64,000 nucleotides of DNA, from the NCBI GenBank assembly GCA_964416445.1, contig CAYQEE010000001.1, positions 131,676-195,675 on the forward strand, in the 5' to 3' direction. The position numbers were made by a program, and so were the translations under genes. The DNA is from an uncultured Gammaproteobacteria bacterium. Its GTDB lineage: Bacteria; Patescibacteriota; Microgenomatia; Levybacterales; UBA12049. Below the pieces are notes generated by a model. The model had not been told where the DNA came from and ran no database searches. It saw only the letters and a list, made by a program, of their open reading frames with translations. Below are positions 21,122-63,553 of the stretch, in pieces (the stretch's first letter is position 1; each line of letters starts with the position of its first letter).

Positions 21122-21150
21122 GTTTGTTTCGCTCTATTTACAATAGATAT

Positions 21151-21990: not shown

Positions 21991-21994
21991 GACA

Positions 21995-22573: not shown

Positions 22574-22754
22574 ATATACTATAATACATAATTTTGCTTT
22601 CCGTTGTGAAGTTTTTTTCTTTTCGTAATAATTTTGTAGGATTTCTGTAATAAAAAATATAAAATTGATATTATTCGTATCTTTTTTATTCATATTGTTA
22701 TACATAATATATCTTGACCAATTGTCGAATCGTTTGATAGCGTTATAGGTCTAC

Positions 22755-24290: not shown

Positions 24291-24310
24291 TAGTCTCAAA
24301 AACGAAGTGA

Positions 24311-25696: not shown

Positions 25697-25697
25697 A

Positions 25698-27162: not shown

Positions 27163-28443
27163 GTGTTCTTTTGCTATCAGGGATATAATACGATCATGTG
27201 GCAACAAGCTAAAAATATTTATCACTTACTTATTTCCTTTTTTGTGAATCTTTCTCAAGGATTTCCAGGGCGGAAATTAATTGTCATTGGGGTTACAGGG
27301 ACAAGTGGGAAAACAACCACGTCGCATATGCTCTATGAAGTTCTGAGAGCGTCAGGAAAACAAGTTGCATTAATTTCGTCAATAAAAGCAGTAATTGGCG
27401 GAAAAGATATTGATACAGGATTTCATGTTACAACGCCAGGCCCGGATGTATTACCAAAATATTTACATCAAGCAGTCGAAGCTCATGATCACTATGTTGT
27501 TCTTGAAGTTTCTTCTCATGCGCTTGATCAAAATCGAGCAGCATTTATTCCTTTTCATATAGGAGTTTTAACGACGCTTGCCCATGAACACTTGGATTAC
27601 CATAAGACATTTCTCAATTATGCAAAAGCGAAATTTAAGTTACTCCACAGAGCAAAAACTGCTGTAATTCCTGAGAAAAGTATTCCGCTTGATATTAAAA
27701 AAGGGGTACATTATGAAAAACTTAAAAAGGTCGTAACGTTTGGATTGTCACAAGGACAAGTAACTCAATCAGAATGGCAATTGCGCCTGAAAGTCCCAGG
27801 AGATTATAATCTCCTGAATGCACTTGCAGCAGCTGCAGTTGGAGAACTTCTCCATATTCCCCATGATAGTATTAAAAAAACGTTAGAAAACTTTTCTGCA
27901 ATTCCGGGGAGGTTTGAAGAAATTCCTAATGCATTTGGTTTTCGAGTTATTATTGATTTTGCTCATAAACCCGATGCGTTAGAAGAAGTTTTGAAAACAG
28001 CACGAAAACAAGTAACAACAAATGGGAGAATTATTGTCATGTATGGATGTGCAAGCCAGCGTGATGTATTAAAACGGCCTATTATGGGAAAAATAAGTGG
28101 AGAACTTGCTGAAATCACTGTTTTAACTGATGAAGATCCACGACTGGAAAATTCTATGAAAATTATCAACGAGATAGCACAAGGTTGTCTTGAAGCACAC
28201 GCAAAAGAAATATCCGCGAGAGCGCATCAACCTTCAACAAAAACACATGTTTTTTATAAAATACCAAACCGAAAAGAAGCAATTATCTTTATCATAACGA
28301 AACTTGCAAGAAAAGATGATATTATACTGTTTTGTGGAAAAGGTCATGAACAATCGATGAATTATCATGGAATTGAAACACCTTGGAATGAACATCTTGT
28401 TGTTGCTAATGCATTAGCCATGTATGGAGAAAAAAAACATTAA
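27163..28443 (+). CDS. MurE-like Mur ligase lacking the N-terminal UDP-binding domain
   Basis: P-loop 'GVTGTSGKTTTS' sits at residue ~45. 'LAHEHLDYHKTF', 'GRFEEI', 'DFAHKPDALEEVL' and 'GCASQRDVLKRPIMG' are Mur ligase motifs. C-terminal 'GKGHEQ' is MurE-like. Only 61 nt separate it from the divergent upstream gene, so there is no room for a canonical N-domain. Confidence 0.6.
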   Translation: MFFCYQGYNTIMWQQAKNIYHLLISFFVNLSQGFPGRKLIVIGVTGTSGKTTTSHMLYEVLRASGKQVALISSIKAVIGGKDIDTGFHVTTPGPDVLPKYLHQAVEAHDHYVVLEVSSHALDQNRAAFIPFHIGVLTTLAHEHLDYHKTFLNYAKAKFKLLHRAKTAVIPEKSIPLDIKKGVHYEKLKKVVTFGLSQGQVTQSEWQLRLKVPGDYNLLNALAAAAVGELLHIPHDSIKKTLENFSAIPGRFEEIPNAFGFRVIIDFAHKPDALEEVLKTARKQVTTNGRIIVMYGCASQRDVLKRPIMGKISGELAEITVLTDEDPRLENSMKIINEIAQGCLEAHAKEISARAHQPSTKTHVFYKIPNRKEAIIFIITKLARKDDIILFCGKGHEQSMNYHGIETPWNEHLVVANALAMYGEKKH

Positions 28444-29857
28444 ACATATTCATTTTATTGGTATAAAAGGAGTAGGAATGGCTCCACTCGCAATTATTGC
28501 AAAGGAAGCTGGATTTCAAGTCTCTGGATGTGATGTCGCTGATTCGTTTATTACTGATACGCCCTTGCGAACAGCTGGCATACATCCACTGGTTGGATTC
28601 CATCCATTACATTTGAAAGGTGTCGATCTTGTTATAACAACGGGAGCACATAACGGGAAGAATAATCCTGAGGTATTGCAAGCAGATAGACTGCATATCC
28701 CAATTCGTATGCAAGGTCAAGCAGTTGGTGAGTTTATGAAAGGTGACTTGTTTCATAGAAAGTTAAAGGGAATATCGGTTGCCGGTTGTCATGGTAAAAC
28801 GACTACGACTGCTTTAGTAGCAACACTTTTAAAAAACGGGCAGTATGATCCTTCGTTTGTTATTGGAACTGGAGAAATTCCCTCGCTTGGAGGATCTGGT
28901 CATTATGGTCATGGTGATTACTTTATTGCAGAAGCCGATGAATATGCTACCGATCCTCAGGGTGATCGAACTCCAAAGTTTCTTTGGCATCATCCGGAGA
29001 TTGCTATTATTACGAATATAGAATTTGATCATCCAGATTTGTATAAAAATATCGAACAAACTGAAAATGCTTATGCTCAGTTTGTGAAAAATATCCATTC
29101 GAATGGTGTGCTTATCGCGAACGGAGATGATGAACATGTGCGAAAAATTCTGAAAAATGTTTCATGTAGAACTACACTTTTCGGTTTTAATTCGAATAAT
29201 GATTATGTTCTACAAAATATCCGCATTCGTGACAGGAAGACATTTTTTACTCTTTCAGATAAAAAAGGATTTGATCAAGAATTCGCCGTCAATGTTATTG
29301 GTACTCATAACGCATTTAATGCAACCGCTGCACTTTTTGTCGCGAAAGAGGTAGGTATGTCGGACAGTGATATCCAGTCGGGATTATTTTCCTTTCATGG
29401 AACAAAAAGACGATTTGAATATAAAGGAAAGCTTGTTTCTGGTGCGCTTCTCTATGACGATTACGCCCATCATCCGACAGAAATTCAGGCAACTCTTGCG
29501 GCGCTGCATGCAGCTCACCCAAGCAGTAACATTGTCGCTATTTTCCAACCGCATACCTTCAGTAGAACTAAAATAATGTTCGATGATTTTATTAACTCAT
29601 TTTCTGATGCACGGATTGTTTTGCTAACTCAAATATATGCCTCAAAACGCGAAGCTCCTGATGGATCCATTTCTTCAGAAATGCTTGTTGCAGCCTTGCA
29701 AAAGGCAGGCAAAAAGGTTGTTTTTGTACCACAGCTCAACGATGTGGTAGAATACGTACACAAACAACATTGGGATGAATCCTATTGTCTTATTACCTTA
29801 GGCGCAGGAGACATCTATAAAATAGAAGATCAATTAACCAAAGAAGAACTGCTTTAG
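28424..29857 (+). CDS. murC: UDP-N-acetylmuramate--L-alanine ligase
   Basis: 'HFIGIKGVGMAPLAIIAKEAG' is the MurC Rossmann N-domain. The P-loop 'GCHGKTTTT' is present. Full three-domain length of 477 aa. Confidence 0.85.
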   Translation: MEKKNIKHIHFIGIKGVGMAPLAIIAKEAGFQVSGCDVADSFITDTPLRTAGIHPLVGFHPLHLKGVDLVITTGAHNGKNNPEVLQADRLHIPIRMQGQAVGEFMKGDLFHRKLKGISVAGCHGKTTTTALVATLLKNGQYDPSFVIGTGEIPSLGGSGHYGHGDYFIAEADEYATDPQGDRTPKFLWHHPEIAIITNIEFDHPDLYKNIEQTENAYAQFVKNIHSNGVLIANGDDEHVRKILKNVSCRTTLFGFNSNNDYVLQNIRIRDRKTFFTLSDKKGFDQEFAVNVIGTHNAFNATAALFVAKEVGMSDSDIQSGLFSFHGTKRRFEYKGKLVSGALLYDDYAHHPTEIQATLAALHAAHPSSNIVAIFQPHTFSRTKIMFDDFINSFSDARIVLLTQIYASKREAPDGSISSEMLVAALQKAGKKVVFVPQLNDVVEYVHKQHWDESYCLITLGAGDIYKIEDQLTKEELL

Positions 29858-29863: not shown

Positions 29864-31192
29864 ATGGACATATTTAAAGTGACCGGTGGTATACCGTTAC
29901 GAGGAACAACATCCGTTTCAGGTGCCAAGAACGCTGCATTGAAAGCCGTTGTTGCAGCGTGTTTAACGTCTGAAGAAGTTATCATTCATAACATTCCGCT
30001 GATTTCAGATTTTTACTATATGGTAGACATTATGAAGCTTTTGGGAGCTTCCGTTGTTATAAAAGACCATACCGTTCATGTACGCATGAAAAAATTTCAT
30101 CGATCGACCATTCCTCTTGATATTGCCGCTCAAATGCGAACTTCCGCAATGTTTATTGGCCCGCTCCTCGCTCGTACGGGGAAAGCATTAATACCCAATC
30201 CTGGAGGGTGTCGGCTTGGAGCACGTCCCATAGATCGAACAATTAATGGGGTGCGACATTTGAATGCAAAAATTGCTTATAACAGCGAAGACGGTTATTT
30301 TCATGCACAAACAAGAAAACTCAAAGGTACAATGTATACTTTTGAAAAGAACACCCATGTCGGTACAGAAACGATGATTATTGCGGCAGCCCTTGCAGAA
30401 GGTAAAACAATACTGAAAAATGCCGCAGAAGAGCCTGAAATTGATGATCTGATTGAACTATTAAATAATATGGGTGCAAATGTGATGCGTACCGCAAAAA
30501 GAGAAATAACGATTGTTGGGGTAGAAAAGCTTCATGGAGCTACCATTACTATTCACCCTGATCGTAATGAAATTGTTACTTTTGCCATTGCTGCTATTTT
30601 AACAAAAGGTGATATTTTTATTAATGACGCACATACCGTCGATTTACAAGCGTTTCTTACTGCAGTAGATCAAGCAGGTGCAGGATACGAAAAAACAGAG
30701 AAAGGAATTAGATTTTATGCAAAAGATACAATTCAAGCAACGAATTTGACAACGTCAGTATATCCAGGATTTATGACGGACTGGCAAGCGCCATGGGCAA
30801 TTCTTATGACTCAAGCACAAGGGACATCAACAATACATGAGACAGTATTTGAAAATAAGTTTGGCTACATTTATGATTTACGAAAAATGGGTGCTCATAT
30901 CGATTTTTACAATCCTCAAGTTCAAAATCCTGAAGCAGTGTATAATTTTAATTTATCAGATGATCGACCTGATTATTATCATGCTATCAAGATTTTTGGT
31001 CCAACCAAGCTGCATAATGCGATAGTCACGATGATTGATATTCGCGCAGGAGCCGCTGTTGTATTAGCTGCATTAGCTGCAAAAGGTACGTCGACAATTT
31101 TTGGTATTGAAAAGCTTGATAGAGGATATGAAAAATTTGAGAAACGATTACGAAGTCTTGGTGCAAAAGTAAAACGAATGAGACAACCATGA
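29864..31192 (+). CDS. murA: UDP-N-acetylglucosamine 1-carboxyvinyltransferase
   Basis: 'MDIFKVTGGIPLRGTTSVSGAKNAALKAVVAACL' is the canonical MurA N-terminus. Size is 442 aa. Confidence 0.9.
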   Translation: MDIFKVTGGIPLRGTTSVSGAKNAALKAVVAACLTSEEVIIHNIPLISDFYYMVDIMKLLGASVVIKDHTVHVRMKKFHRSTIPLDIAAQMRTSAMFIGPLLARTGKALIPNPGGCRLGARPIDRTINGVRHLNAKIAYNSEDGYFHAQTRKLKGTMYTFEKNTHVGTETMIIAAALAEGKTILKNAAEEPEIDDLIELLNNMGANVMRTAKREITIVGVEKLHGATITIHPDRNEIVTFAIAAILTKGDIFINDAHTVDLQAFLTAVDQAGAGYEKTEKGIRFYAKDTIQATNLTTSVYPGFMTDWQAPWAILMTQAQGTSTIHETVFENKFGYIYDLRKMGAHIDFYNPQVQNPEAVYNFNLSDDRPDYYHAIKIFGPTKLHNAIVTMIDIRAGAAVVLAALAAKGTSTIFGIEKLDRGYEKFEKRLRSLGAKVKRMRQP

Positions 31193-31920
31193 AAGATAAC
31201 ATTGCAGCAATTATTCTTGCAGCGGGAAGAGGTAAACGAATGGAATCAACTGATAAAAATAAAGTTGTCTTTCCTTTAAAAGGAAAACCAATGATTGCGT
31301 ATACTATTCGTTTACTTAACGAGTTGGATATTTCTGAAATTATCGTTGTTGTGGGTTTTGCAAAAGAATCAGTGTATGAAGTATTAGGAACATCTGTACA
31401 GTATGCTGAACAAAAAGAACAGCGAGGAACAGCGGATGCGGTATGGGAGGGTCTAAAAAAAGTATCTGATTCGGTATCACATATTTTGGTATTGAATGGT
31501 GACGATTCTGCATTCTACACGAAAGAAGTAGTACAAGCGCTTATAACAAAGCATATTCATTCTTCGGATGTCATAACATTATTGACAACAAAACGAGAAA
31601 ATCCATATGGAATTGGAAGAATAGTCAGGACAAAAAACAAAAAATTAGTTAAAATAGTGGAAGAGAAGGATGCAAGTGAAGAAGAAAAAATGATAACTGA
31701 AGTCAATGTTGGGTGTTATCTCTTTACAAGTTCGTATCTTAAGAGAGCGCTTCCCAAATTAGAAAAAAGTTCTATCACCGGCGAGTATTATTTAACAACG
31801 TTGGTTGATATGGCGCTGCAAGAAAAGTTACCAGTTGAAACAGTTACTGATCCGAATTTACGATGGCATGGAATCAATACGAAGGAAGATTTACAAAAGG
31901 CAGAAACCTATTTTATGTAA
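31189..31920 (+). CDS. GlmU-like N-terminal sugar nucleotidyltransferase domain, as a stand-alone gene
   Basis: 'AAIILAAGRGKRMES' is the G-x-G-x-R NTase motif. At 243 aa it matches the GlmU pyrophosphorylase domain only. Confidence 0.6.
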   Translation: MKDNIAAIILAAGRGKRMESTDKNKVVFPLKGKPMIAYTIRLLNELDISEIIVVVGFAKESVYEVLGTSVQYAEQKEQRGTADAVWEGLKKVSDSVSHILVLNGDDSAFYTKEVVQALITKHIHSSDVITLLTTKRENPYGIGRIVRTKNKKLVKIVEEKDASEEEKMITEVNVGCYLFTSSYLKRALPKLEKSSITGEYYLTTLVDMALQEKLPVETVTDPNLRWHGINTKEDLQKAETYFM

Positions 31921-31926
31921 TAGATC

Positions 31927-32568
31927 ATGAATAATACATTTGCGCCAGAGCACTATTTTGATTTAACAAATTGTACATTTGCTGATATCTTTCAAGGGAA
32001 AGAAGCAGTATGGGAAGTTTTAGGAAATTTGGGAGACTTCTTACAAAAACAATTTACCGACAAAAAGATCATTGCGAATTATAAGGATAGTACCAACATT
32101 TATGTCGGTGAAGGAACGATTATTGAAGAAGGCGCGTATATTAAAGGTCCAGCAATTATTGGAAAAAATTCATTTATTGGTCATGCCGCTTATTTACGGC
32201 AAAATTGTCTTTTTGATGATGATGTCTCAATTGGACATGGAAGTGAAGTAAAAAATAGTATTGTCTTTTCCCATTCTGCAATTGCTCATTTGAATTATAT
32301 TGGCGATAGTATATTTGGACACAATGTTAATATCGGTGGTGGAGCGAAAACAGCTAATTTCCGATTAGATGGAAGGACGATTCCTGTTAGAGAGGGAGAT
32401 AACAAGATTGATACGGGGCTCACGAAATTTGGAGCGATTTTGGGTGATGAAACAAAAATAGGAGTTAATGCTGTTTTGAATCCGGGAACTATTCTTGGAA
32501 AACGAGTCCATGTTTTTCCTCTCAAGCTGGTATTTGGAACCCATGGTGAGGGAACAGTTATTAAATAA
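31927..32568 (+). CDS. Left-handed beta-helix (hexapeptide-repeat) acyltransferase, probably the separated GlmU acetyltransferase half
   Basis: Hexapeptide repeats are visible, for example 'IGDSIFGHNVNIGGGAKTANF'. It begins 6 nt after the NTase gene. Confidence 0.55.
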   Translation: MNNTFAPEHYFDLTNCTFADIFQGKEAVWEVLGNLGDFLQKQFTDKKIIANYKDSTNIYVGEGTIIEEGAYIKGPAIIGKNSFIGHAAYLRQNCLFDDDVSIGHGSEVKNSIVFSHSAIAHLNYIGDSIFGHNVNIGGGAKTANFRLDGRTIPVREGDNKIDTGLTKFGAILGDETKIGVNAVLNPGTILGKRVHVFPLKLVFGTHGEGTVIK

Positions 32569-35020: not shown

Positions 35021-35713
35021 ATGACAAAAACCATTGTTATTCTTCATGGTTGGAGACTAACAGGGCAAAAATATCAAAATATCCAGAAAATTTTTGAGCA
35101 GCATGGTTTTACTGTATATTCTCCTGATTTACCGGGAAGTGGATCTGAAAAATTAACCAAACCGATTATGAAAATAGATGATTATATCGATTTTGTGGTT
35201 GACTATTTCCAAAAACATACTATTAAGAAAGCTATTGTTATTGGTCATTCATTTGGGGGAAGAGTTGGTGCAAAACTTGCTGCAACACATCCAGAATTGG
35301 TCGAAAAATTAATTCTCACTGGTGCACCATTAATAAAACAACAGTTGCCATTTCGTAAAAAAGTACTTGTTTATTTTGCTAAATTTGTTAAAAAGATAGT
35401 TATAGCAAAAAAAATGAGAAAATTACTGTATTATATTCTTGGCGAGTGGGATTATTATAAAACAACTCCTGAAATTCGTGAAACGTTTAAAGCAATCATA
35501 GCTGAGGATATTGCACAAAATCTTTCTCAAATCACCGTACCCACTTGTATTATTTGGGGTGGTGAGGATACATTTGTTGGCAAGTCGTTAGGTCGGCAAA
35601 TTGCTAGTCAAATTCCAGGTTCAACATATAAGGAAATTCCTCATGCAACGCATAAACTGCCTTATGAATATCCAGAAAAGTTCGCAGGGAGTGTTTTATC
35701 ATGGGTGCAGTAA
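35021..35713 (+). CDS. Alpha/beta-fold hydrolase
   Basis: 'IVILHGW' together with the nucleophile elbow 'GHSFGG'. Confidence 0.65.
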   Translation: MTKTIVILHGWRLTGQKYQNIQKIFEQHGFTVYSPDLPGSGSEKLTKPIMKIDDYIDFVVDYFQKHTIKKAIVIGHSFGGRVGAKLAATHPELVEKLILTGAPLIKQQLPFRKKVLVYFAKFVKKIVIAKKMRKLLYYILGEWDYYKTTPEIRETFKAIIAEDIAQNLSQITVPTCIIWGGEDTFVGKSLGRQIASQIPGSTYKEIPHATHKLPYEYPEKFAGSVLSWVQ

Positions 35714-37317
35714 CCATTGCTTCGTATTTCCACACTATTGTTTTCGGGGCCTTTATCCTTTGGGTACTAAGGAATGTCCTTTTTTGGGTTGGTTTGTGGC
35801 AAGATAAAGAATATCGATTAGATAGATTAGTGGTTCATTTGACAGAAACCGTACAAGGGAGACATGTATTTACTTCATGGGGTAATAGATTAAAATGGTT
35901 ATTTTTTTTAGGATATATCTTTGTTGCTTTCTATGATACCTATGCGACCTGGTATGAATTATTGCTCGGATTATTCTTTATTCTCCAAGCATTATTTATT
36001 ATCAAAGATGGATGGTATCATCGGATAAAACGTCCAGTTTTTACTTCCAAAGCACTTGTCCTCATTGTGCTGAGTCTATTATTTATAAGTGTTTTTTTGA
36101 TTTACCCGCTGATGAATACTTTCTTTTGGTTATTATTTGTCGACCGAACACTCCCTTTTGTTGTTGCACTTTTTGTCTTTTTTATGGCATTTCCGACAGA
36201 GGTTGCCGAAGATATTAAAATTGGCAATGCAAAAAAAAAGATGCAGCGGTTAGAAAAAATATTGGTTATTGCGGTAAGCGGTAGTTATGGGAAAACATCA
36301 ACAAAAGAGTATATTGCACAGGTACTATCGCATAAATACAAAGTTGTTAAAACACCTGGATCAAATAATACTCCTGTTGGTATAGCAAATACGATCTTGC
36401 ACAAAATACATAATGATACGGAAGTATTTGTGGTTGAAATGGGTGCTTATAAACTCGGAGAAATTGCCGAATTAACTCAAATTGTTGCTCCATCAATCAG
36501 TGTTACTACTGCTATCAGTGATCAACATATATCTCTCTATGGAAGTTTACAAAATGTTATTAATTCTGAATATGAACTCATTCACGCGTTACCAAAAAAT
36601 GGTTTGGCATTGTTTAATGGGAACAGTAAAAATATAGAAAAACTTTTTGATCGAGCAAAAATTGAGAAGGTGTGGTATCAAGTATTTACTCGAAAGCCAA
36701 AAGACAATCCGCGAATTGGAGCATATCATGTTCAAGCGAGTATTCGCGGAGTAACGTTTACTGCATTGTTACATGGAAAAGAATTCTTGTGTAAAACACC
36801 ATTGTTTGGTGTCCATGTGGTTGAAAATATTTTACCTGCTCTATTTTTAGCAGATCGTTTAGGATTTAGCAAAAAAGAAATGAGTAAAGCAATAGCAGAA
36901 TTGCAACCTCCTGCACAAACGATGATCAAACGTGAGTTGCGCAATGGTGCGTTTGCAATGGATGACACATTTAATGCAAGTCCTGAGTCGGTTTTTTCAG
37001 CAATGGATTTTTTAAAGCTTTCACCGAAAAAGAAAATATTTGTCTTAGCTCCTCTTACCGAACTTGGCAGTGAAGCAAAAAAAAGACATTTTCAGGTAGG
37101 AGAAAAAGCAAGCGGAATATGTGATTTCTTATTTTTACTCAACAGTAATTTTTCATCTGAAATCTCGAAAGGCGTTATTGAAGGAAAGGGAACTTGTCAC
37201 GTACAAATTGCTCGGCCTGAAGAAATAGCAAAAATCATTGCAAAACTTACGAAAAAAGGAGATATGATAATCTTTGAAGGAAAAGAATCAAAAATGGTTA
37301 TGAATAAATTATTATGA
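35701..37317 (+). CDS. MurF-like UDP-MurNAc-pentapeptide synthetase catalytic and C-terminal domains, fused to a ~190-aa N-terminal polytopic membrane domain
   Basis: MurF motifs: 'AVSGSYGKTSTKEY', 'GSNNTPVGIANTIL', 'VVEMGAYKLGEIAEL', 'MDDTFNASPESV'. The first ~190 aa have about 5 hydrophobic helices and replace the usual MurF domain 1. Confidence 0.65.
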   Translation: MGAVTIASYFHTIVFGAFILWVLRNVLFWVGLWQDKEYRLDRLVVHLTETVQGRHVFTSWGNRLKWLFFLGYIFVAFYDTYATWYELLLGLFFILQALFIIKDGWYHRIKRPVFTSKALVLIVLSLLFISVFLIYPLMNTFFWLLFVDRTLPFVVALFVFFMAFPTEVAEDIKIGNAKKKMQRLEKILVIAVSGSYGKTSTKEYIAQVLSHKYKVVKTPGSNNTPVGIANTILHKIHNDTEVFVVEMGAYKLGEIAELTQIVAPSISVTTAISDQHISLYGSLQNVINSEYELIHALPKNGLALFNGNSKNIEKLFDRAKIEKVWYQVFTRKPKDNPRIGAYHVQASIRGVTFTALLHGKEFLCKTPLFGVHVVENILPALFLADRLGFSKKEMSKAIAELQPPAQTMIKRELRNGAFAMDDTFNASPESVFSAMDFLKLSPKKKIFVLAPLTELGSEAKKRHFQVGEKASGICDFLFLLNSNFSSEISKGVIEGKGTCHVQIARPEEIAKIIAKLTKKGDMIIFEGKESKMVMNKLL

Positions 37318-38549
37318 AACGAGTAAATGCTATTGGGTTATCACCAAATACGAGCATGCGCGATGTTCTTATTGCCTGCAAACAAATGATTAACCCACGA
37401 ACCTATCAAAAAGGCCCTGCGATAACCACTATCGAAAAATGGTTTCTCTCGTATTTTCAGGTAGGATCTGCGGTTTCGTTTTCTCATGGACGAACTGCAC
37501 TCTATGCGATCATGAAAGCGCTTGAAATTGGAAGAGGTGATGAAGTTATTTTACAAGCGTTTACTTGTGTAGTTGTTCCTAATATGATTGTTGCTTTGGA
37601 TGCACAACCAATTTATGCGGATATTACGAAAAACTTGACGATAGATCCTCGTGATGTTGAAAAAAAAATTACCAAAAAAACAAAAGCAATTATTGTACAA
37701 CATACGTTTGGTATTCCTGCAGATATGGAGGCACTTATGGCCATTGCAAAGAAACATAAGATATCGCTTATTGAAGATGTTGCTCATACCATTGGAGGTA
37801 CCTATAAGGGGAAAAAATTGGGAACGTTTGGTATAGCAAGTATTTTTAGTTTTGGAAGAGATAAAGCATTCTCCTCGGTATTTGGAGGAATTGCCATTAC
37901 GAATGATACCGATCTTGGAGAAAAATTGCGAAATTTTCAAAAAAATATTCCTTTTCCATCAAAACAATGGATAGCACAACAACTCTTTCATCCGATTGCT
38001 TTTTCCGTTATTTTGCCTACATATAATTCGGGGTTTGGAAAGCTTATCCTTGTTGTGTTGCAGAAATTACATTTCTTATCCTTTCCAGTAAGTCGTGATG
38101 AGCGAAAGGCACTCTTTTCTCAATCATTGCTGAAGCGATTTCCTAATGCTCTTGCGATACTTGCATTGCAACAACTTGAGCAGCAAGAAAAATTTAATTC
38201 AAAAAGAATAGCAATTAGCCAAAAATATCAAGAAGTATGCCAAGTGAAAGGTATTTCGATTATGAGCAATGAACGATATCCTTACCTTAGATTTCCTCTT
38301 CGAGTAGCAAACCCCCAAGCAATGCGCTCATTTTTTAAAGCGAAAAGGAATATTTATTTAGGCGATTGGTATGCACATGTTCTTGATCCCAGAGGGAGTG
38401 ATTTTACAGCAGTTTCCTATACAAAAGGATCTTGTCCTGTCGCTGAAGCTATTGCCTGTCAAATTATCAACTTGCCAACATACCCATCGATGTCAGACAA
38501 TGATGTGACTGAGGTAATTGATCTCCTCAAACAATATGATACAAATTAA
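37314..38549 (+). CDS. DegT/DnrJ/EryC1/StrS-family PLP-dependent sugar aminotransferase
   Basis: Family motifs 'ILQAFTCVVVPNMI', 'IIVQHTFGIPADM' and 'SFGRDKAF' (PLP lysine region). Confidence 0.75.
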   Translation: MKRVNAIGLSPNTSMRDVLIACKQMINPRTYQKGPAITTIEKWFLSYFQVGSAVSFSHGRTALYAIMKALEIGRGDEVILQAFTCVVVPNMIVALDAQPIYADITKNLTIDPRDVEKKITKKTKAIIVQHTFGIPADMEALMAIAKKHKISLIEDVAHTIGGTYKGKKLGTFGIASIFSFGRDKAFSSVFGGIAITNDTDLGEKLRNFQKNIPFPSKQWIAQQLFHPIAFSVILPTYNSGFGKLILVVLQKLHFLSFPVSRDERKALFSQSLLKRFPNALAILALQQLEQQEKFNSKRIAISQKYQEVCQVKGISIMSNERYPYLRFPLRVANPQAMRSFFKAKRNIYLGDWYAHVLDPRGSDFTAVSYTKGSCPVAEAIACQIINLPTYPSMSDNDVTEVIDLLKQYDTN

Positions 38550-39552
38550 AGAAATCATCAGTAAAACAAGTTGGAATGCTTTTTTAGAACTTATTCCAGC
38601 GGAAAATTATCCTTTTTTCCAAACATGGAATTGGGGAGAGATTCAAAAAAATAACGGATTTCCTATTATCCGGCTAGGTATATATGATGAAAATAAATTA
38701 GTTGGTATTTGTTTAGTTGTTGATATTAATGCAAAACGAGGTCACTATTTCCATTTGCGTCATGGGCCCGTCTTGCTTGATTTTGAAAAATATTTCGATC
38801 CCTTAATCGGGTATATAACAAAACAAGCACAAGCGAAGAACGCTGCATTTTTGCGAATAAGTCCGCTTTTAAAAAAAGATACACTTTTTTTAGATTTTTT
38901 TATAAAACGAAAATTTCGATACGCACCTATTCATAATATGGATGCAGAGATTTGTTCATTGTTGAATATTCAAAAATCTGAACAGGAATTGTTAAGTGGA
39001 ATGAGGAAATCTCATCGGTATTTGATAAAAAAAGCGAAAACGATGACAATTAGCATTCGTAAAAGTACGGACAAAAAAGATATAGAAAATTTTTTGCAGC
39101 TCTATGAAGATTTTTCATCCAAAAAGCATTTTGTTGCGCATAAGGGAATTCTTGAGGAATTTACCGTATTACAGAAAGATGATGAAATTGCTTTATTTCT
39201 TGCTACCTACGAAGAAAAAATTATAGCAGGAATTCTTATCGATTATATTGGTCCTGTTGCCATTTATCATCATGCAGCAAGCAATGCGCAATATCGTAAT
39301 ATTCCTGCAAATTATTTGCTTCTATGGGAAGCTATTATTGAAGCGAAAAAGCGGAACAAATTGTATTTTAACCTCTGGGGAATTGCTCCGACAGAAAGTA
39401 AAAAACATCCTTGGAGTGGGTTTACTCTTTTTAAGACTGGCTTTGGTGGCGAACGAGTAGAATTTTTGCATGCTATGGATTTACCTTTATCGCAATCGTA
39501 CTGGAAAACATATGTTATCGACTGGATAACAAAGAAACGAAAAGGATACTAA
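38518..39552 (+). CDS. FemAB-family aminoacyl-tRNA-dependent peptidoglycan peptidyltransferase
   Basis: The N-terminus '[31 protein letters not shown]' matches the FemABX consensus. Size is 344 aa. Confidence 0.6.
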
Positions 39553-44812: not shown

Positions 44813-45003
44813 CAAAGAGAAAAAATTATTTACCCAGTCTTACCCTTTATATTCAATACTTGCTTGATATAGCTTGCTTCGTTATAAAGAATATTATGTA
44901 ATATTTGCGCATATATGAAAAAATATCGTTTTGTCAAAGAAATATTACCACTATATACTTTAATTTCTTTAGTGGCTGTTGTAGAGTAATAGTATACCGT
45001 GAC

Positions 45004-46479
45004 ATGAAACATGCAAATCGTAAGCGCAAGAAAAAAAATCAAGGAATGAAGCTTTCTCTTTTACTCAGTATCATTTTGTTATTTTTTCTCTGTTTAGCGT
45101 TAACTATTGCTTTATTCTTCCTACAACTTCCACAAGATATTCGTCAACATGCTGCTGGGCCAACAACATATGGTACGTGTAGTGGTTCAAGCCCTTCGCA
45201 GAGTGGTAATTGTTACGCTACGCCCAATTCGTGTGCCTCGCAAGGGTTAACTCAATACTATTCATCATTTGTTCCCCAGATCACCCAATGTGGACAACAA
45301 GCATACCTTGCAGGCGTAACTGCTGGTACATCGGTTAGCTGTTGCCCGAATCAACCGAACGGCTATCCCAACTCCTACGGATCTTGTGGAGCAACAAACC
45401 AAGGTACCTGTACGAGCAGTGCTTGTGTTGGAACGCCACTATATACTGATACCGTTCCTACGCAATGTTCCTATAATGGTTCTCAGGCGGCATTAGCAGT
45501 TGGGACACAAATGTACTGTTGTTCATTACCACCAACGCCTACCCCAACTCCAACGATTGATCCGTGCTCAACATTACAGTTAAATCCCAATTGTGCTATA
45601 ACAGCGAACAAGAGCGGTAATTTTTGTGGCGGGAATGCTCCTCCGAGTAATTGTCAGTTAGGAGGTAATGCAAATACGCTGTATTCATGTCAATGTAATG
45701 CCCAAGGTAAGAACTGCGTGATGGTTAGTTCTCAGAATTGTGCACAATCACAAAATGGTGCGTGTATTGTCATTCCTGGTGGGGTAAACGCAGACCACTG
45801 TGGCACAGTTTCACCTCCTCCCGTTGCCGCAGCATTCTCGTTCAACCTTACTGGTATTGGACCAGGAGGAAATAAAAACCCGGGACGCAAAACGCGGACC
45901 TTTTTTCTCTATTTCTCTCCTCATCAATTTGCCAGTGCGTTACTTGCTCAAAATACGAATCAACGAGTGTTAGGTACCCAAGTGATCAAGGTTTCTGGCA
46001 CTGCGACCTATAATGCTTCAGCTGGAGGGTTTCAAGCTTCAAATATTTCCCTTGCTGCAGTTCCCGCGGGGCAATATGATGTAATTCTTCATGTCGATGG
46101 ATCACTCGATAAATTTTTACAACCTATTGGCGGCGCACCATATTTTACTATTACGAATGGTCAGCCAATTACGCCGAGTTCAGTTTCTCTTTCAGGAGGA
46201 GATATTGCCCCTCCTCCTTCAGGTGATAATTTTGTTGATATTCAAGATTATAATGCGCTGATTACCTGTATGAACAATGTCAATTGTGCAAATAAAACAT
46301 TAGCAGATATTAATGATGATGGAATTGTAGATGGAACAGATTTACAGCTTCTCCTGCAGTCTTTTGGTCAGTTGGGTGATAGTTTTAGTAGTCCCTTATT
46401 CGGTTGTGTTCTTGACCCAAATTGTAAAACGGGGGGAGGTACGATACAATTTTGTCAGTTGGTTTGTAAAATACAATGA
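45004..46479 (+). CDS. Cys-rich secreted protein with a Pro-Thr linker and a C-terminal dockerin-like domain; start at the ATG at 45004
   Basis: Signal/TM 'LSLLLSIILLFFLCLALTIALFF', many Cys, and 'PPTPTPTPTPTIDP'. The dockerin-type repeat is 'DINDDGIVDGTDLQLLLQSFGQ', with a weaker preceding repeat 'GDNFVDIQDYNALI'. Confidence 0.55.
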   Translation: MKHANRKRKKKNQGMKLSLLLSIILLFFLCLALTIALFFLQLPQDIRQHAAGPTTYGTCSGSSPSQSGNCYATPNSCASQGLTQYYSSFVPQITQCGQQAYLAGVTAGTSVSCCPNQPNGYPNSYGSCGATNQGTCTSSACVGTPLYTDTVPTQCSYNGSQAALAVGTQMYCCSLPPTPTPTPTIDPCSTLQLNPNCAITANKSGNFCGGNAPPSNCQLGGNANTLYSCQCNAQGKNCVMVSSQNCAQSQNGACIVIPGGVNADHCGTVSPPPVAAAFSFNLTGIGPGGNKNPGRKTRTFFLYFSPHQFASALLAQNTNQRVLGTQVIKVSGTATYNASAGGFQASNISLAAVPAGQYDVILHVDGSLDKFLQPIGGAPYFTITNGQPITPSSVSLSGGDIAPPPSGDNFVDIQDYNALITCMNNVNCANKTLADINDDGIVDGTDLQLLLQSFGQLGDSFSSPLFGCVLDPNCKTGGGTIQFCQLVCKIQ

Positions 46480-47042
46480 ACAATATGGTAATGAAAAAAT
46501 ATACTCCTCTTTTTATGGTAATTACCGTACTTGTGGCAATACTTATTTTTTTTATTATTCAAAAAAGCAGTCATGATATTTTTACAACTGCAATCGCGAC
46601 TCCCACACCGTATGTTGTTTCCGTAACACCTATTTCGCCAAACGCTGTTGCCACACTTTCATTAAAGCAGGAACAACAAAATACCGTAACAGTTCACATC
46701 GATAGTCAGAATAAGCCGGTTACTGCGGTACAACTCGCATTATCATACAATCCACAAGTATTATCTTCGGTTACCATAAACCCTGGTCAATTTTTTACAA
46801 ATCCTGTTGTGTTAAGTAATACTGTTGATCCACATAAGAAAATGATATTTTATGTGCTAGCGATTCGGCCAAATCAGCAGCCACCAACAGGGATAGGTGA
46901 TCTCGCAACGATTACCTATACCGTTAATTTTGGTGTTGCTAGCACTATTTCCTTAGAATTTTTGCCTCAAACGAAGATAACAGAACTTGGTATAGAAGAA
47001 TCAATATTGAAAAGAGCAACAGGAATTGAAATTCCAATATAA
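46476..47042 (+). CDS. Membrane-anchored cohesin-like domain protein
   Basis: An N-terminal TM helix, a Pro/Thr linker, then 'VTAVQLALSYNPQVLSSVTINPGQFF', which resembles the cohesin YDPxxLE core. It overlaps the dockerin gene by 4 nt. Confidence 0.45.
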   Translation: MNNMVMKKYTPLFMVITVLVAILIFFIIQKSSHDIFTTAIATPTPYVVSVTPISPNAVATLSLKQEQQNTVTVHIDSQNKPVTAVQLALSYNPQVLSSVTINPGQFFTNPVVLSNTVDPHKKMIFYVLAIRPNQQPPTGIGDLATITYTVNFGVASTISLEFLPQTKITELGIEESILKRATGIEIPI

Positions 47043-55663: not shown

Positions 55664-55690
55664 CGCTTTTGGTATAATGATAACTATTGT

Positions 55691-56074: not shown

Positions 56075-56077
56075 CTC

Positions 56078-56107: not shown

Positions 56108-56136
56108 AGGATTGGTTTTCACAGGAGATACGAACT

Positions 56137-58361: not shown

Positions 58362-58394
58362 CGTTGGTATTTTATGATACTATGGATCCCACTT

Positions 58395-59953: not shown

Positions 59954-59957
59954 ACTT

Positions 59958-61482: not shown

Positions 61483-62549
61483 ATGCTTTGTTTTCGAATA
61501 TTCAATAAAATACCAATCGAACATAAATCAATGATTAATGATGAACCCCCATACGAAATGAAAGGCAGTGGAACCCCGGTGAGAGGAAACAATGTTGTCT
61601 GAGCTCCTAAATTAATAATCATTTGCATTGTTAAAAATGCGGTGATGCCACCTGCTAATAGTTTACCAAACGTATCTCTTGCTCGCATAGCTATAAAGAG
61701 TCCTCTCCAAGCAAGGACTGCTAATACGACAAGCAAAATGGTTGAACCTATAAAACCAAATTCTTCTGCGATGATAGCAAAAATAGAATCAGTAGTGTTC
61801 TCGGGTAAATACGCATATTTTTGCAGTGAATTACCAATGCCTACTCCTGTAAGTCCTCCCGAACCAAGGGCAATTAATATTTGTGTGACATGATAATGCG
61901 CGGGGTTTGAGGGATCGGTAGGATTAAGGAATGTTGCTAATCGTTTCGCGCGATATGGTTCAATCTTAATGAGAATAAACCCAAGAATGCCCAGAATTGG
62001 TCCCATAATACCTAAATAGAGAAAATTTCCCCCCGACAGAAAATATAAAATGAGTGCTTCAGAAAGAATAATAATTGCTGTTCCCATATCAGGTTCTAAA
62101 AGAACTAAAACGAGAACAAGTCCGACTAATAAGAGAAAGGAAAAAAATCTTCCTTTTTCTTTATTGGAAAACCATGCAGCAAGGTATATGGCTAACGTTA
62201 ATTTAACGAACTCTGCAGGTTGCAGTACCGTAAAGTGGAAATTAAGCCATCGGTGAGCGCCTAAAATTGGTTGACTCAATCCAGGAATAAACACCATCAG
62301 TAGGAGAAGAATAGCAAGAATAAGTAAAGGAAGTGATAGTTTATAAAATTTGTGATAATCAAAATAAGTCAGAAAAGACATTCCAATAAATCCAAAAATC
62401 ATCCATATCGATTGATCCTTAATGTAATGAAATTTATCTCCATGGAAATCACGGTATGAAATAAATGATGAAGCGTCGTAAATCATGAGAAAGCCAAATA
62501 ACGTTAGTGCAATAACACCAATGAGCAGTACGAGGTCTATTTTTTTCAT
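61479..62549 (-). CDS. ftsW: SEDS-family lipid II flippase/peptidoglycan polymerase FtsW
   Basis: Start at the internal ATG at 62549, giving 'MKKIDLVLLIGVIALTLFG', which overlaps the mraY stop by 4 nt. 'ENTTDSIFAIIAEEFGFIGS' is the SEDS signature. Confidence 0.85.
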   Translation of the reverse strand: MKKIDLVLLIGVIALTLFGFLMIYDASSFISYRDFHGDKFHYIKDQSIWMIFGFIGMSFLTYFDYHKFYKLSLPLLILAILLLLMVFIPGLSQPILGAHRWLNFHFTVLQPAEFVKLTLAIYLAAWFSNKEKGRFFSFLLLVGLVLVLVLLEPDMGTAIIILSEALILYFLSGGNFLYLGIMGPILGILGFILIKIEPYRAKRLATFLNPTDPSNPAHYHVTQILIALGSGGLTGVGIGNSLQKYAYLPENTTDSIFAIIAEEFGFIGSTILLVVLAVLAWRGLFIAMRARDTFGKLLAGGITAFLTMQMIINLGAQTTLFPLTGVPLPFISYGGSSLIIDLCSIGILLNIRKQSI

Positions 62550-63553
62550 CTGATGAGCGCGAGATATAGTCCGACGATAGCAAAGAAGAAACCGAGTAAC
62601 CAAGCCCGCATAACAATTTTAGGTTCTTCCCATCCTTTATGTTGCAAATAGAGATGAAAAGGCGATACAGGAAATAATTTTTTATGAAAAAACTTTTTCC
62701 AAATCATTTGTAATAATGATGATCCTGCTTCAATAATAAAAACGCCTCCGATGACGGCAAGCGCGATTGTTTTTCCGGATAACAAACCAATCACTGCTAA
62801 CACAGCACCTAATGATAATGAACCGACATCTCCGAGCCAGATTCTCGCTTTATAGATATTAAAATAAAGAAAGGCTCCCACAGACCCCATAAGTAGAGCA
62901 ATAAAAATACCGAGCGATGGGTCCAATTGTTGTGCTGAAATAGCTAAAAAGGCGACAAGACAAATAAGAAATAATCCTGATGCGAGCCCATCTAATCCAT
63001 CAGCGATATTAGAAGCGTTTGCAAACCAAACAATTACAGCAGCTGCAAACGGAATATATAAATAACCGACACTTGCCAGACCAAAACCACGTATGTAGAT
63101 AAAATTACCATTTAATTTTGTATAAAAAATAACGGCAATAATTAATGCAAGGATCAATTGAATAATGAGTTTATGACGAAGTCTAAGGCCAAAAAATGCT
63201 GATCGAATATTAGTCATTTTTTTTAGATCATCATACAGACCAAGCATACCAAAACCTATAAACGAAATGAGAAGTACTGTTAATGCCCAAGGGTTAATTT
63301 TTACATTTAAAAGACCATAGGCCCAAAACGTAAGAATTGAGACTGCAACAATAATGAGCAGTCCTCCCCCAATAGGAGTGCCAACTTTCCAAGAATGAAA
63401 TTTATCAAAGATTGTTGCACGTTTATTGAAAGGATCTTTCGTTGCTTGCGTACGTCGTTGCAGCTTAATTTTATATAAGAAATCAATAAAAGGCACAAGT
63501 AAAATTGCCGTGATAAACGACGATAATATGGATAAACCGAGGAGTTGCACCAT
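62546..63553 (-). CDS. mraY: Phospho-N-acetylmuramoyl-pentapeptide transferase
   Basis: 'NASNIADGLDGLASG' is the MraY signature. About 10 TM helices. Confidence 0.9.
   Translation of the reverse strand: MVQLLGLSILSSFITAILLVPFIDFLYKIKLQRRTQATKDPFNKRATIFDKFHSWKVGTPIGGGLLIIVAVSILTFWAYGLLNVKINPWALTVLLISFIGFGMLGLYDDLKKMTNIRSAFFGLRLRHKLIIQLILALIIAVIFYTKLNGNFIYIRGFGLASVGYLYIPFAAAVIVWFANASNIADGLDGLASGLFLICLVAFLAISAQQLDPSLGIFIALLMGSVGAFLYFNIYKARIWLGDVGSLSLGAVLAVIGLLSGKTIALAVIGGVFIIEAGSSLLQMIWKKFFHKKLFPVSPFHLYLQHKGWEEPKIVMRAWLLGFFFAIVGLYLALIR

What the first reader, a model, noticed from the sequence alone, without database searches (positions are those of the whole stretch)
35701..37317. MurF fused to a polytopic membrane domain in place of its nucleotide-binding N-domain
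Residues ~190-538 carry all MurF hallmark motifs: P-loop 'GSYGKTSTKEY', 'GSNNTPVGIANTIL', 'VVEMGAYKLGEIAEL' and 'MDDTFNASPESV'. The first ~190 residues are about five hydrophobic helices with no similarity to MurF domain 1, which normally contacts the UDP moiety.

A membrane-embedded MurF suggests D-Ala-D-Ala addition on a membrane-associated, possibly lipid-linked, precursor rather than on soluble UDP-MurNAc-tripeptide.
Basis: partly seen in the sequence, partly recalled or inferred. Interest (0 to 1): 0.65.

Follow-up and report, generated by a model that had tools for sequence, protein, structure and literature searches.

The report
Membrane-embedded MurF of Patescibacteria
MurF, a cell-wall enzyme that is soluble in textbook bacteria, is here and in hundreds of Patescibacteria built onto a conserved five-helix membrane domain that replaces its nucleotide-binding part, so the last peptide-adding step of peptidoglycan precursor synthesis seems to happen at, or possibly on, the membrane.

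Summary
ORF 35701-37317 (+) is one uninterrupted 538-aa gene. Residues ~184-538 are a MurF-type Mur ligase by sequence and by predicted fold. The ~70-aa MurF domain 1 is absent.

Residues 1-165 instead form a confidently modelled, all-helical five-TM domain (N-out/C-in by charge bias). It has no Pfam family and no significant match among solved structures. It carries invariant polar motifs in two cytoplasmic loops and a conserved Asp/Arg pair inside TM5.

The fusion is not an artefact:
- More than 120 full-length relatives were found, and an N-domain profile hits 732 cluster representatives, always at the N-terminus.
- At least 111 species genomes across Patescibacteria carry it.
- It sits in the dcw cluster, sometimes directly upstream of mraY.
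- It usually lies in a conserved cassette: alpha/beta-hydrolase, TM-MurF, DegT-like aminotransferase, FemAB-like transferase.

The neighbouring MurE also lacks domain 1 yet is soluble. I found no description of this architecture in the literature searched.

Verdict: a real, widespread, apparently undescribed variant of a known enzyme. Its acceptor substrate is the open question.

The parts
35701..37317 (+). Complete TM-MurF gene (538 aa plus stop)
   Evidence: Uninterrupted ORF. An identical protein, P0001, is in public data on a 259,585-bp contig.
35686..35691 (+). Shine-Dalgarno-like AGGGAG, 9 nt upstream of the ATG
   Evidence: Read directly from the sequence.
35710..35769 (+). TM1 (about residues 4-23), poorly conserved hydrophobic helix running outside to inside
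   Evidence: Hydropathy, AlphaFold helix 2-35 and charge bias.
35770..35880 (+). Juxtamembrane helix plus cytoplasmic loop 1 (residues 24-60), carrying the motif W29..L32-W33-Q34-x-K36-E37-Y38-R39-x-D41-R42...H46...G53
   Evidence: Invariant or near-invariant columns. Mean 6.5 K+R per sequence, so cytoplasmic.
35881..36012 (+). TM2 (about 61-77) and TM3 (about 83-104), joined by a short uncharged outer loop
   Evidence: AlphaFold helices 60-77 and 79-105. Loop 2 has mean K+R of 0.3.
36013..36051 (+). Cytoplasmic loop 3 (residues 105-117), motif K-R-P112-V-F-T115-x-K117
   Evidence: In 65 genome-derived sequences P112 and T115 are 100% and K117 is 97% conserved. P112 is 87% conserved, and position 117 is K/R in 89%, among 90 unbiased representatives. 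Mean K+R 3.7.
36052..36195 (+). TM4 (about 118-134), short outer loop, and TM5 (about 142-165) with the conserved intramembrane pair D148/R149 plus W143
   Evidence: AlphaFold helices 116-134 and 140-183. Position 148 is D/E in 93% and position 149 is K/R in 82% of representatives.
36196..36258 (+). Linker helix (residues 166-186), continuous with TM5 and equivalent to the domain-1/domain-2 connector of canonical MurF
   Evidence: Single AlphaFold helix 140-183. Aligns to T. maritima MurF from residue 73 and E. coli MurF from 99. Distant members align from murF profile position 60-71.
36274..36849 (+). Mur ligase middle (ATP-binding) domain, P-loop G194-S-Y-G-K198-T at 36280-36297
   Evidence: PF08245, E 1.4e-33. 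G194, S195, G197, K198, E246, Q275, H276 and N306 are conserved across the family.
36943..37284 (+). Mur ligase C-terminal (incoming amino acid/dipeptide) domain
   Evidence: PF02875, E 4.6e-8. D421, E454-L455-G456 and H463 are conserved.
35021..35713 (+). Alpha/beta-hydrolase gene, conserved upstream partner, overlapping the TM-MurF start
   Evidence: Pfam Abhydrolase_1 and Hydrolase_4. Directly upstream in 67 of 75 loci.
37314..38549 (+). DegT/DnrJ/EryC1-type PLP aminotransferase-like gene, conserved downstream partner (ATGA overlap)
   Evidence: PF01041, E 1.6e-62. Downstream in 42-48 of 62 loci. The PLP lysine K184 is conserved.
38518..39552 (+). FemAB-family transferase-like gene, conserved second downstream partner
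   Evidence: PF02388, E 4.3e-31. DegT followed by Fem in 43 of 58 loci.
27163..28443 (+). MurE that also lacks the MurE/F-type domain 1 (soluble); context for interpretation
   Evidence: TIGR01085, 330 bits, profile 78-471 of 472. At most 37 aa before the P-loop strand, stop codons upstream, no hydrophobic segment.
62546..63553 (-). MraY (next enzyme in the pathway), displaced here by a rearrangement; adjacent to the cassette or to TM-MurF in relatives
   Evidence: PF00953. Gene orders.

Best explanation
This gene encodes the cell's own (housekeeping) MurF, the ATP-dependent ligase that adds the terminal dipeptide, normally D-Ala-D-Ala, to the MurNAc-tripeptide precursor of peptidoglycan. It is an integral-membrane form specific to Patescibacteria.

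The usual alpha/beta domain 1, which holds the UDP end of the acceptor, has been replaced by a conserved five-helix membrane domain with N-terminus outside and C-terminus inside. TM5 of that domain runs as one helix straight into the ligase. Two conserved, basic and aromatic cytoplasmic loops (W-x-x-L-W-Q-x-K-E-Y-R-x-D-R and K-R-P-x-x-T-x-K) lie where domain 1 would be.

My preferred version: these loops take over binding of the nucleotide-diphosphate end of UDP-MurNAc-tripeptide. The reaction chemistry is unchanged (acyl-phosphate formation on residue 3, then attack by the dipeptide amine). The product, UDP-MurNAc-pentapeptide, is released at the membrane face next to MraY.

Shown here: the architecture, its conservation, the MurF-type sequence and fold, the topology by charge bias, and the dcw-cluster position.
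Inferred: that it is the only MurF in these genomes, that the loops bind the acceptor, the identity of the acceptor, and hand-over to MraY.
For: MurF identity:
- TIGR01143 scores 227 bits against 66 or less for other Mur ligase models. The same holds for six distant members (165-264 bits).
- The ten best PDB fold matches are all MurF structures (E 3e-25 to 2e-21).
- phmmer aligns residues 177-530 to T. maritima MurF 73-409.
- Catalytic residues are conserved family-wide.

Housekeeping role:
- The gene lies in the dcw cluster between GlmS and MraY-FtsW-MurG in a complete genome.
- It lies directly upstream of MraY in L012 and L018 (and L005 with a 474-bp gap), the ancestral murF-mraY adjacency.
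- No second MurF-like ORF occurs in the window or in any of the 80 loci.
- An FtsI transpeptidase is present, which by established knowledge needs D-Ala-D-Ala-ended donors.

A functional, not merely anchoring, membrane domain:
- Models are confident: pLDDT 92.3 with pTM 0.86, and 94.8 for the N-domain alone.
- Invariant polar residues concentrate in the cytoplasmic loops.
- The positive-inside pattern is clear: 6.5, 3.7 and 5.7 K+R inside against 0, 0.3 and 0.5 outside.

UDP acceptor still possible without domain 1: the soluble MurE next door also lacks domain 1.
Against:
- Tethering an enzyme to the membrane does not by itself concentrate a soluble substrate.
- A mere tether would not need five helices with a conserved intramembrane Asp/Arg pair and conserved residues on the outer side.
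- MurT, which lacks domain 1, acts on lipid II, and the published rationale for that (PMC6113224) fits this protein's geometry well.
- The curated MurF cutoff (288.6 bits) is not reached.
- I could not scan whole genomes for a second, canonical MurF.
Confidence: 0.5

Rival explanations
1. Lipid-linked acceptor. MraY first transfers phospho-MurNAc-tripeptide to undecaprenyl phosphate. TM-MurF then adds the dipeptide to undecaprenyl-PP-MurNAc-tripeptide (lipid I or lipid II stage). The membrane domain holds the polyprenyl chain and the basic loops hold the pyrophosphate at the membrane surface.
For: - Domain 1, the UDP-binding part, is exactly what has been replaced, and it is replaced by a membrane domain.
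- In MurE 4c12 and MurF 4cvk the substrate pyrophosphate sits at the domain-1/middle-domain boundary. MurT, whose closest structural relatives are MurFs, lacks domain 1 because its substrate is lipid II and domain 1 would clash with the membrane (PMC6113224).
- Here that boundary coincides with the exit of TM5 from the membrane.
- Conserved residues lie within the bilayer and on its outer side (W143, D148/R149, P136), not only at the cytoplasmic face.
- The conserved neighbour is a FemAB-family enzyme, a family whose S. aureus members act on lipid II (for that statement; for the neighbour).
Against: - There is no precedent for MurF acting after MraY.
- It requires MraY to use a tripeptide donor efficiently, which was not tested.
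- The soluble MurE without domain 1 shows that loss of domain 1 in this lineage does not require a membrane-bound substrate, unless MurE too acts on lipid, which is more radical still.
- The linker helix of about 18 residues could hold the ligase up to ~27 Å from the bilayer if it is straight. This is my inference; the geometry was not measured.
Confidence: 0.33
2. Paralogue with another job. The protein is a MurF-derived ligase that, together with the alpha/beta-hydrolase, the DegT-like aminotransferase and the FemAB-like transferase, builds or decorates a different membrane-associated glycopeptide or polymer. A canonical MurF is encoded elsewhere in the genome.
For: - The four-gene cassette is very tightly conserved (hydrolase in 67 of 75 loci; DegT followed by Fem in 43 of 58).
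- In Parcubacteria-type genomes the cassette stands apart from the other mur genes, next to FtsI only.
- DegT-type enzymes normally act on nucleotide-keto-sugars (nearest solved relatives).
- FemAB-family models also exist for exopolysaccharide systems (TIGR03019 hit).
- The MurF model's curated cutoff is not reached.
- A related short class has the TM domain plus only the middle domain, in a different gene context.
Against: - In L005, L012 and L018 the gene occurs without the three partners, directly before mraY-ftsW-murG.
- No other MurF-like gene is found in about 1.4 Mb of dcw-region sequence.
- The score gap to all non-MurF ligase models is large and stable across the family.
- The best fold matches are MurFs.
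Confidence: 0.13
3. Artefact. The N-terminal 185 residues belong to a separate upstream membrane-protein gene that was joined to a truncated murF by a sequencing or assembly error.
For: - Genes in this operon overlap, so single-base errors can fuse neighbours. Apparent one-off fusions do exist (P0063 hydrolase plus TM-MurF; the L054 MurF-DegT ORF).
Against: - The same continuous ORF occurs in more than 120 independent full-length relatives and in 64 full-length genome-derived sequences.
- The N-domain profile always matches at residues 1-177 of MurF-length proteins.
- Short hits end inside TM helices or at the P-loop, so they are fragments, not a free-standing family.
- AlphaFold models TM5 and the linker as one helix with pTM 0.86.
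Confidence: 0.01

Closest known systems
Canonical MurF (UDP-MurNAc-tripeptide--D-alanyl-D-alanine ligase; TIGR01143; PDB 1gg4, 3zl8, 4cvk, 4qf5)
   Same: [quoted passage not shown]
- The P-loop and catalytic residues are conserved.
- The gene lies in the dcw cluster, adjacent to mraY in some relatives.
   Different: - Domain 1 (about 70-85 aa, alpha/beta, UDP-binding) is absent.
- It is replaced by a 165-aa all-helical five-TM domain with its own conserved motifs.
- The protein is integral to the membrane rather than soluble, and its score is below the family's curated cutoff.
MurT of the GatD/MurT lipid II isoglutaminyl synthase (PDB 7q8e and others; PMC6113224)
   Same: - It is a Mur-ligase relative whose closest structural homologues are MurFs.
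- It lacks domain 1, and that loss is explained by a membrane-bound (lipid II) substrate.
- It appears among the fold matches of this protein (rank 36).
   Different: - MurT is soluble, has a Cys4 zinc ribbon, and works with the GatD amidotransferase to amidate rather than extend the peptide. From my own knowledge, its C-terminal domain is of the DUF1727 type.
- This protein has no CxxC motif, has PF02875 as its C-domain, has no GatD neighbour, and scores only 22-23 bits on the MurT models (cutoff 800).
Natural Mur chimeras with membrane proteins (MurD-FtsW, MraY-MurG) surveyed in PMC10214165
   Same: A cytoplasmic peptidoglycan enzyme is covalently joined to a polytopic membrane protein of the same pathway.
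   Different: - In those chimeras two complete, recognisable enzymes are joined and the ligase keeps all three domains.
- Here the membrane part matches no known family and substitutes for a ligase domain.
- The survey used proteins over 600 aa from named species and does not list this form.
PgsB/CapB of poly-gamma-glutamate synthetase (from my own knowledge, not tested here beyond absence of hits)
   Same: It is a Mur-ligase-superfamily amide ligase that works at the membrane in a complex with membrane proteins. It is of similar size to the short 'TM plus middle domain' class seen in passing.
   Different: - No PgsB model appears among the NCBIfam hits for this protein.
- PgsB polymerises glutamate and is not MurF-like.
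- Its membrane association is through one short N-terminal segment and partner proteins, not a conserved five-TM domain.

Membership tests
MurF (TIGR01143 / Mur ligase family) | Mur ligase middle domain with an ATP-binding P-loop (GxxGKT/S) and catalytic Glu/His/Asn | tested here: met
   PF08245, E 1.4e-33. G194-S-Y-G-K198-T, E246, H276 and N306 are conserved in 65 sequences.
MurF (TIGR01143 / Mur ligase family) | Mur ligase C-terminal domain | tested here: met
   PF02875, E 4.6e-8, residues 415-528.
MurF (TIGR01143 / Mur ligase family) | Closer to MurF than to MurC, MurD, MurE, Mpl or MurT | tested here: met
   227 bits for murF against 66 or less for the others. The same holds in six distant members. 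The ten top PDB fold hits are all MurF.
MurF (TIGR01143 / Mur ligase family) | Whole-protein score at or above the curated cutoff (288.6 bits) | tested here: not met
   227.1 bits. The match starts at profile position 71 because domain 1 is missing.
MurF (TIGR01143 / Mur ligase family) | N-terminal MurE/F-type alpha/beta domain 1 that binds the UDP moiety | tested here: not met
   No profile match before residue 184. The model is all-helical up to residue 183. The definition of domain 1 is taken from PMC10117817 and PMC6113224.
MurF (TIGR01143 / Mur ligase family) | Located in the dcw cluster with murE and mraY | tested here: met
   Directly upstream of mraY in L012 and L018.
MurF (TIGR01143 / Mur ligase family) | Catalyses ATP-dependent addition of D-Ala-D-Ala to UDP-MurNAc-tripeptide | not testable with these tools
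   Needs an enzyme assay.
MurT (lipid II isoglutaminyl synthase subunit) | No domain 1 | tested here: met
MurT (lipid II isoglutaminyl synthase subunit) | Cys4 zinc ribbon in the middle domain, MurT-type C-terminal domain, adjacent GatD partner, and a family model score | tested here: not met
   No CxxC motif and only three Cys residues. The C-domain is PF02875. The neighbours are a hydrolase and DegT. NF045635 scores 23 bits against a cutoff of 800.
Mur-ligase/membrane-protein chimeras (MurD-FtsW type) | The membrane part is a recognisable pathway protein (FtsW/RodA or MraY) | tested here: not met
   No Pfam family on residues 1-183 in 29 members at E up to 1. No PDB fold match (best E 1.5).

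The most novel reading that the evidence does not exclude
In these Patescibacteria the order of the peptidoglycan pathway is changed. MraY loads an incomplete MurNAc-peptide onto undecaprenyl phosphate, and the stem peptide is finished on the lipid carrier by the membrane-embedded MurF. MurE, which has also lost domain 1 and so has a MurT-like architecture, may also act on lipid. The conserved hydrolase/DegT/FemAB cassette would be part of the same membrane-face tailoring unit. The five-TM domain would then be a new kind of polyprenyl-pyrophosphate-binding module.
Probability: 0.3. Interest if true: 0.9.

Novelty: new variant of a known kind. Interest (0 to 1): 0.68.

Why it matters
Mur ligases are textbook soluble cytoplasmic enzymes, and the split between cytoplasmic steps (MurA-F) and membrane steps (MraY onwards) is a fixed point of cell-wall biology and of antibiotic target thinking.

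An integral-membrane MurF conserved across a large part of the Patescibacteria shows that this boundary is not universal. It gives a concrete, testable case for two ideas: covalent membrane scaffolding of the Mur pathway, or stem-peptide completion on the lipid carrier.

It also defines a new, confidently modelled membrane domain with no known relatives, and a conserved four-gene cassette of unknown role in organisms whose envelope biology is almost unstudied. In addition, it flags a systematic annotation gap: these proteins are named either plain MurF or 'Mur ligase family protein', with no note of the domain replacement.

Tried and rejected
- Separate-gene or frameshift artefact: rejected.
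- Simple membrane anchor: unlikely, given five helices and invariant polar residues at the level of catalytic residues.
- Known family for the N-domain: none in Pfam at E up to 1, none in NCBIfam, and none in a Foldseek search of the PDB (best E 1.5, TM 0.31 or less).
- Hydrolase plus TM-MurF 'Rosetta' fusion P0063: judged an artefact. The hydrolase part stops before its catalytic His region and TM1 is truncated. It is therefore not used as evidence for topology or coupling.
- MurT membership: rejected.
- Hydrophobic peak in the DegT-like protein as a membrane segment: rejected, because it is the buried core strand of the fold.
- Literature: eight searches found no description of a transmembrane MurF or of this cassette. 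The 2023 survey of Mur chimeras does not include it.
- Measuring how the conserved loops face the active site: not possible, because model coordinates are not exposed to scripts.
Full report
**1. The observation**

ORF 35701-37317 on the + strand is a single 538-codon frame. A Shine-Dalgarno-like AGGGAG lies 9 nt before the ATG. The start overlaps the stop of the upstream gene by 13 nt.

Pfam places a Mur ligase middle domain at residues 192-383 (E 1.4e-33) and a Mur ligase C-terminal domain at 415-528 (E 4.6e-8).

Among NCBIfam models the best is murF (TIGR01143) at 227 bits, far above murD (66), murC (65) and murE (52). The match covers only profile positions 71-407 of 418, and the score stays under the curated cutoff of 288.6. 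The roughly 70-residue domain 1 of MurF is therefore missing.

phmmer against PDB sequences aligns residues 177-530 to T. maritima MurF 73-409, and 186-483 to E. coli MurF 99-394.

**2. The N-terminal part**

Kyte-Doolittle analysis shows several strongly hydrophobic stretches in the first 170 residues and none later.

AlphaFold2 with a 40-sequence alignment gives a confident model: mean pLDDT 92.3 and pTM 0.86. Helices run at 2-35, 40-49, 51-58, 60-77, 79-105 and 116-134, plus one very long helix at 140-183 that leads directly into the first strand of the ligase. The N-domain alone models at pLDDT 94.8. There is no beta-strand before residue 188. MurE/F-type domain 1, by contrast, is a five-stranded alpha/beta domain that binds the UDP moiety (PMC10117817; PMC6113224).

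Charge counts over 90 cluster representatives give the following mean K+R values:

| Segment | Mean K+R |
|---|---|
| Loop 1 (residues 24-60) | 6.5 |
| Loop 3 (105-117) | 3.7 |
| Linker (166-186) | 5.7 |
| N-terminus | 0 |
| Loop 2 | 0.3 |
| Loop 4 | 0.5 |

By the positive-inside rule this is a five-TM domain with a very short N-terminus outside and the ATP-dependent ligase inside.

**3. A domain with its own conserved site**

In 40 relatives of 42-68% identity the N-domain aligns almost without gaps. Invariant residues are W29, Q34, E37, Y38, R39, D41, G53, S59, P112, T115, W143, P165 and D171.

In 65 genome-derived sequences, N-domain identity to the query is only 21-49%. Even so, R42, H46, G53, K65, P112, T115, K117, D148 and A177 remain at least 90% conserved. 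Positions W29-Y38 are uninformative in that set, because they formed the retrieval pattern.

In 90 representatives found by profile search, which carry no pattern bias, the following remain at 80-93%:
- identical residues W33, Q34, Y38, R42, P112, D148, P165 and A177;
- K/R at positions 117 and 149.

Most of these residues lie in the two cytoplasmic loops. D148/R149 lie inside TM5.

No Pfam model matches the domain at E up to 1 in 29 members. Foldseek against the PDB finds nothing (best E 1.5, TM-scores of 0.31 or less). The full-length model has ten MurF structures as its top matches (E 3e-25 to 2e-21), ahead of MurE, MurC, cyanophycin synthetase and MurT.

**4. Not an artefact, and widespread**

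A search of 5.8 billion proteins returns more than 120 full-length (about 530 aa) relatives with at least 95% coverage. Where they carry a name they come from Patescibacteria or Levybacteria, and they are annotated either as MurF or as 'Mur ligase family protein'.

An N-domain profile searched against 1.84 billion cluster representatives finds 732 proteins at E up to 1e-3 and 333 at E up to 1e-10. The match is always at residues 1-177. Short hits end inside TM helices or at the P-loop, so they are fragments.

One peptide pattern alone recovers 111 species genomes. Their record titles include Levybacteria, Microgenomates, Woesebacteria, Staskawicz-, Nealson- and Wildermuthbacteria, Spechtbacterales, Paceibacterota and Peribacteria. 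Six of the most distant members still match murF best (165-264 bits, starting at profile position 60-71).

**5. Genomic context**

In the window the + strand carries, in order:
- MraZ, RsmH and FtsI;
- five unrelated ORFs;
- MurE, MurC, MurA, a split GlmU, a HAD protein and GlmS;
- an alpha/beta-hydrolase, TM-MurF, a DegT-type aminotransferase, a FemAB-family protein and FtsZ.

MraY, FtsW, MurG and FtsA lie inverted at 58.6-63.5 kb.

In the complete genome CP066685.1 the cluster is intact: FtsI, MurE, MurC, MurB, MurA, GlmU, GlmS, hydrolase, TM-MurF, DegT, FemAB, MraY, FtsW, MurG, FtsA, FtsZ.

Bulk annotation of 80 loci gives these counts:
- The hydrolase is directly upstream in 67 of 75 loci that have enough sequence to judge.
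- DegT is downstream in 42 of 62 loci within 300 bp, and in 48 of 62 if longer gaps are allowed.
- DegT followed by FemAB occurs in 43 of 58.
- In L012 and L018 (and L005 with a 474-bp gap) the three partners are absent and TM-MurF stands directly before MraY-FtsW-MurG, the ancestral murF-mraY adjacency.
- No locus and no part of the window holds a second MurF-like gene.

In Parcubacteria-type genomes the cassette follows FtsI and is separated from the other mur genes.

**6. How it most likely works**

Shown: this is a MurF-type ligase, integral to the membrane, with its active domains in the cytoplasm. It is conserved in the cell-division and cell-wall cluster, and a conserved loop-rich surface occupies the place where domain 1 normally sits.

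Inferred: it is the housekeeping MurF. An FtsI transpeptidase is present and needs pentapeptide donors (established knowledge), and no other candidate MurF is visible.

My preferred mechanism (about 0.5) is that the conserved basic and aromatic loops replace domain 1 in holding the nucleotide-diphosphate end of UDP-MurNAc-tripeptide. The enzyme would then release UDP-MurNAc-pentapeptide at the membrane face beside MraY. That would be a covalent version of the membrane scaffolding proposed for soluble Mur enzymes (PMC10214165). Supporting this, the adjacent MurE also lacks domain 1 (TIGR01085, 330 bits, profile 78-471) yet has no hydrophobic segment. Loss of domain 1 in this lineage therefore does not by itself imply loss of the UDP substrate.

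**7.

This rival holds that the acceptor is lipid-linked. The strongest argument comes from the GatD/MurT structure paper. In substrate-bound MurE (4c12) and MurF (4cvk) the pyrophosphate lies at the boundary between domain 1 and the middle domain. For lipid II that is where the lipid leaves the membrane. MurT, whose nearest structural relatives are MurFs, accordingly lacks domain 1, which would clash with the membrane.

In TM-MurF that boundary is the point where TM5 emerges from the bilayer. Conserved residues also lie within the membrane and on its outer side. A tether alone would not need those.

Against this rival:
- No MurF is known to act after MraY.
- MraY would have to use a tripeptide donor.
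- The straight 18-residue linker might hold the ligase some distance from the bilayer.

I could not measure the geometry because model coordinates are not exposed.

**8. Other rivals**

A paralogue that works with the hydrolase, DegT and FemAB on another glycopeptide, with a canonical MurF elsewhere, gets about 0.13. It is favoured by the tight cassette and by the sugar-aminotransferase affinities of the DegT-like protein. It is disfavoured by the cassette-free murF-mraY arrangement and by the stable MurF-specific scores.

An assembly artefact is effectively excluded. The two one-off fusions seen (P0063; the 944-aa L054 ORF) are not used as evidence.

**9. Comparison with what is known, and novelty**

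The protein works like MurF and is probably its orthologue. It fails two defining features of the curated family: domain 1 and the score cutoff.

It shares with MurT only the absence of domain 1. It has no zinc ribbon, no MurT-type C-domain, no GatD partner, and only a 23-bit score on the MurT model.

Known Mur chimeras with membrane proteins (MurD-FtsW, MraY-MurG) join two complete enzymes. The survey that catalogued them used proteins over 600 aa from named species and lists nothing like this.

Eight full-text searches found no description of a transmembrane MurF or of the cassette. Absence from the searched library is not proof that it is undescribed.

I rate it a new variant of a known kind, with interest 0.68. 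The architecture is solidly established and runs against the textbook picture. The membrane domain is new, and the open question of UDP-linked versus lipid-linked acceptor is directly testable.

Noticed in passing
window 27163-28443 (+): The MurE orthologue also lacks the MurE/F-type N-terminal domain. TIGR01085 scores 330 bits over profile positions 78-471 of 472, and at most 37 aa precede the P-loop strand. It is soluble. Short MurE ORFs (336-452 aa) recur in all Levybacteria-type loci, while MurC (28424-29857) keeps its N-domain. So both MurE/F-class ligases have lost domain 1 in this lineage.
   Followed up: partly
window 35021-39552 (+); loci L005-L084: A conserved four-gene cassette: alpha/beta-hydrolase, TM-MurF, DegT-like PLP enzyme, FemAB-like transferase. 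The hydrolase is upstream in 67 of 75 loci and DegT followed by Fem is downstream in 43 of 58. The DegT-like protein keeps its PLP lysine (K184) and has a conserved insertion at about residues 215-250. The joint function is unknown.
   Followed up: partly
L054 6978-9812 (+); L024 1940-4246 (+): A single 944-aa ORF in a Minisyncoccales MAG fuses the MurF-like ligase to the DegT-like protein. This could be a real fusion or a one-base error. L024 has a 768-aa MurC-MurB fusion, a chimera type already known.
   Followed up: no
proteins P0142, P0145, P0150 and others; L085 2093-3286: A second class of proteins of about 360-410 aa carries the same TM domain followed only by a Mur ligase middle domain (or by a divergent domain with no Pfam hit), with no C-terminal domain. 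P0142 is a complete gene lying after an NTP-transferase and a GNAT acetyltransferase.
   Followed up: partly
window 54578-63553: The dcw cluster is split in this genome. MraY (62546-63553), FtsW (61479-62603), MurG (60364-61524) and FtsA (58649-59953) lie on the minus strand about 19 kb from FtsZ. A second FtsW/RodA-family gene lies at 54578-55663 (+). No MurB, MurD or Ddl is visible in the window, although MurB sits between MurC and MurA in relatives.
   Followed up: partly
window 20974-27101: Five ORFs interrupt the cluster between FtsI and MurE: a bestrophin-like protein, a YdjM-family membrane protein, and three large ORFs (22755-24290 +, 24311-25696 -, 25698-27101 -) with no Pfam match.
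   Followed up: no
window 31189-32568 (+): GlmU is encoded as two separate ORFs here: the nucleotidyltransferase at 31189-31920 and the hexapeptide acetyltransferase at 31927-32568. In CP066685.1 it is a single 417-aa protein.
   Followed up: no
window 44905-47042 (+): Adjacent ORFs carry a dockerin type I domain (44905-46479) and a cohesin domain (46476-47042). This is unexpected in a small patescibacterial genome.
   Followed up: no
protein P0063 (738 aa, JGI contig of 3,460 bp): An apparent alpha/beta-hydrolase plus TM-MurF fusion. The hydrolase part ends before its catalytic His region and TM1 lacks its first residues, so it is probably a deletion or assembly artefact rather than a true three-part fusion.
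   Followed up: yes
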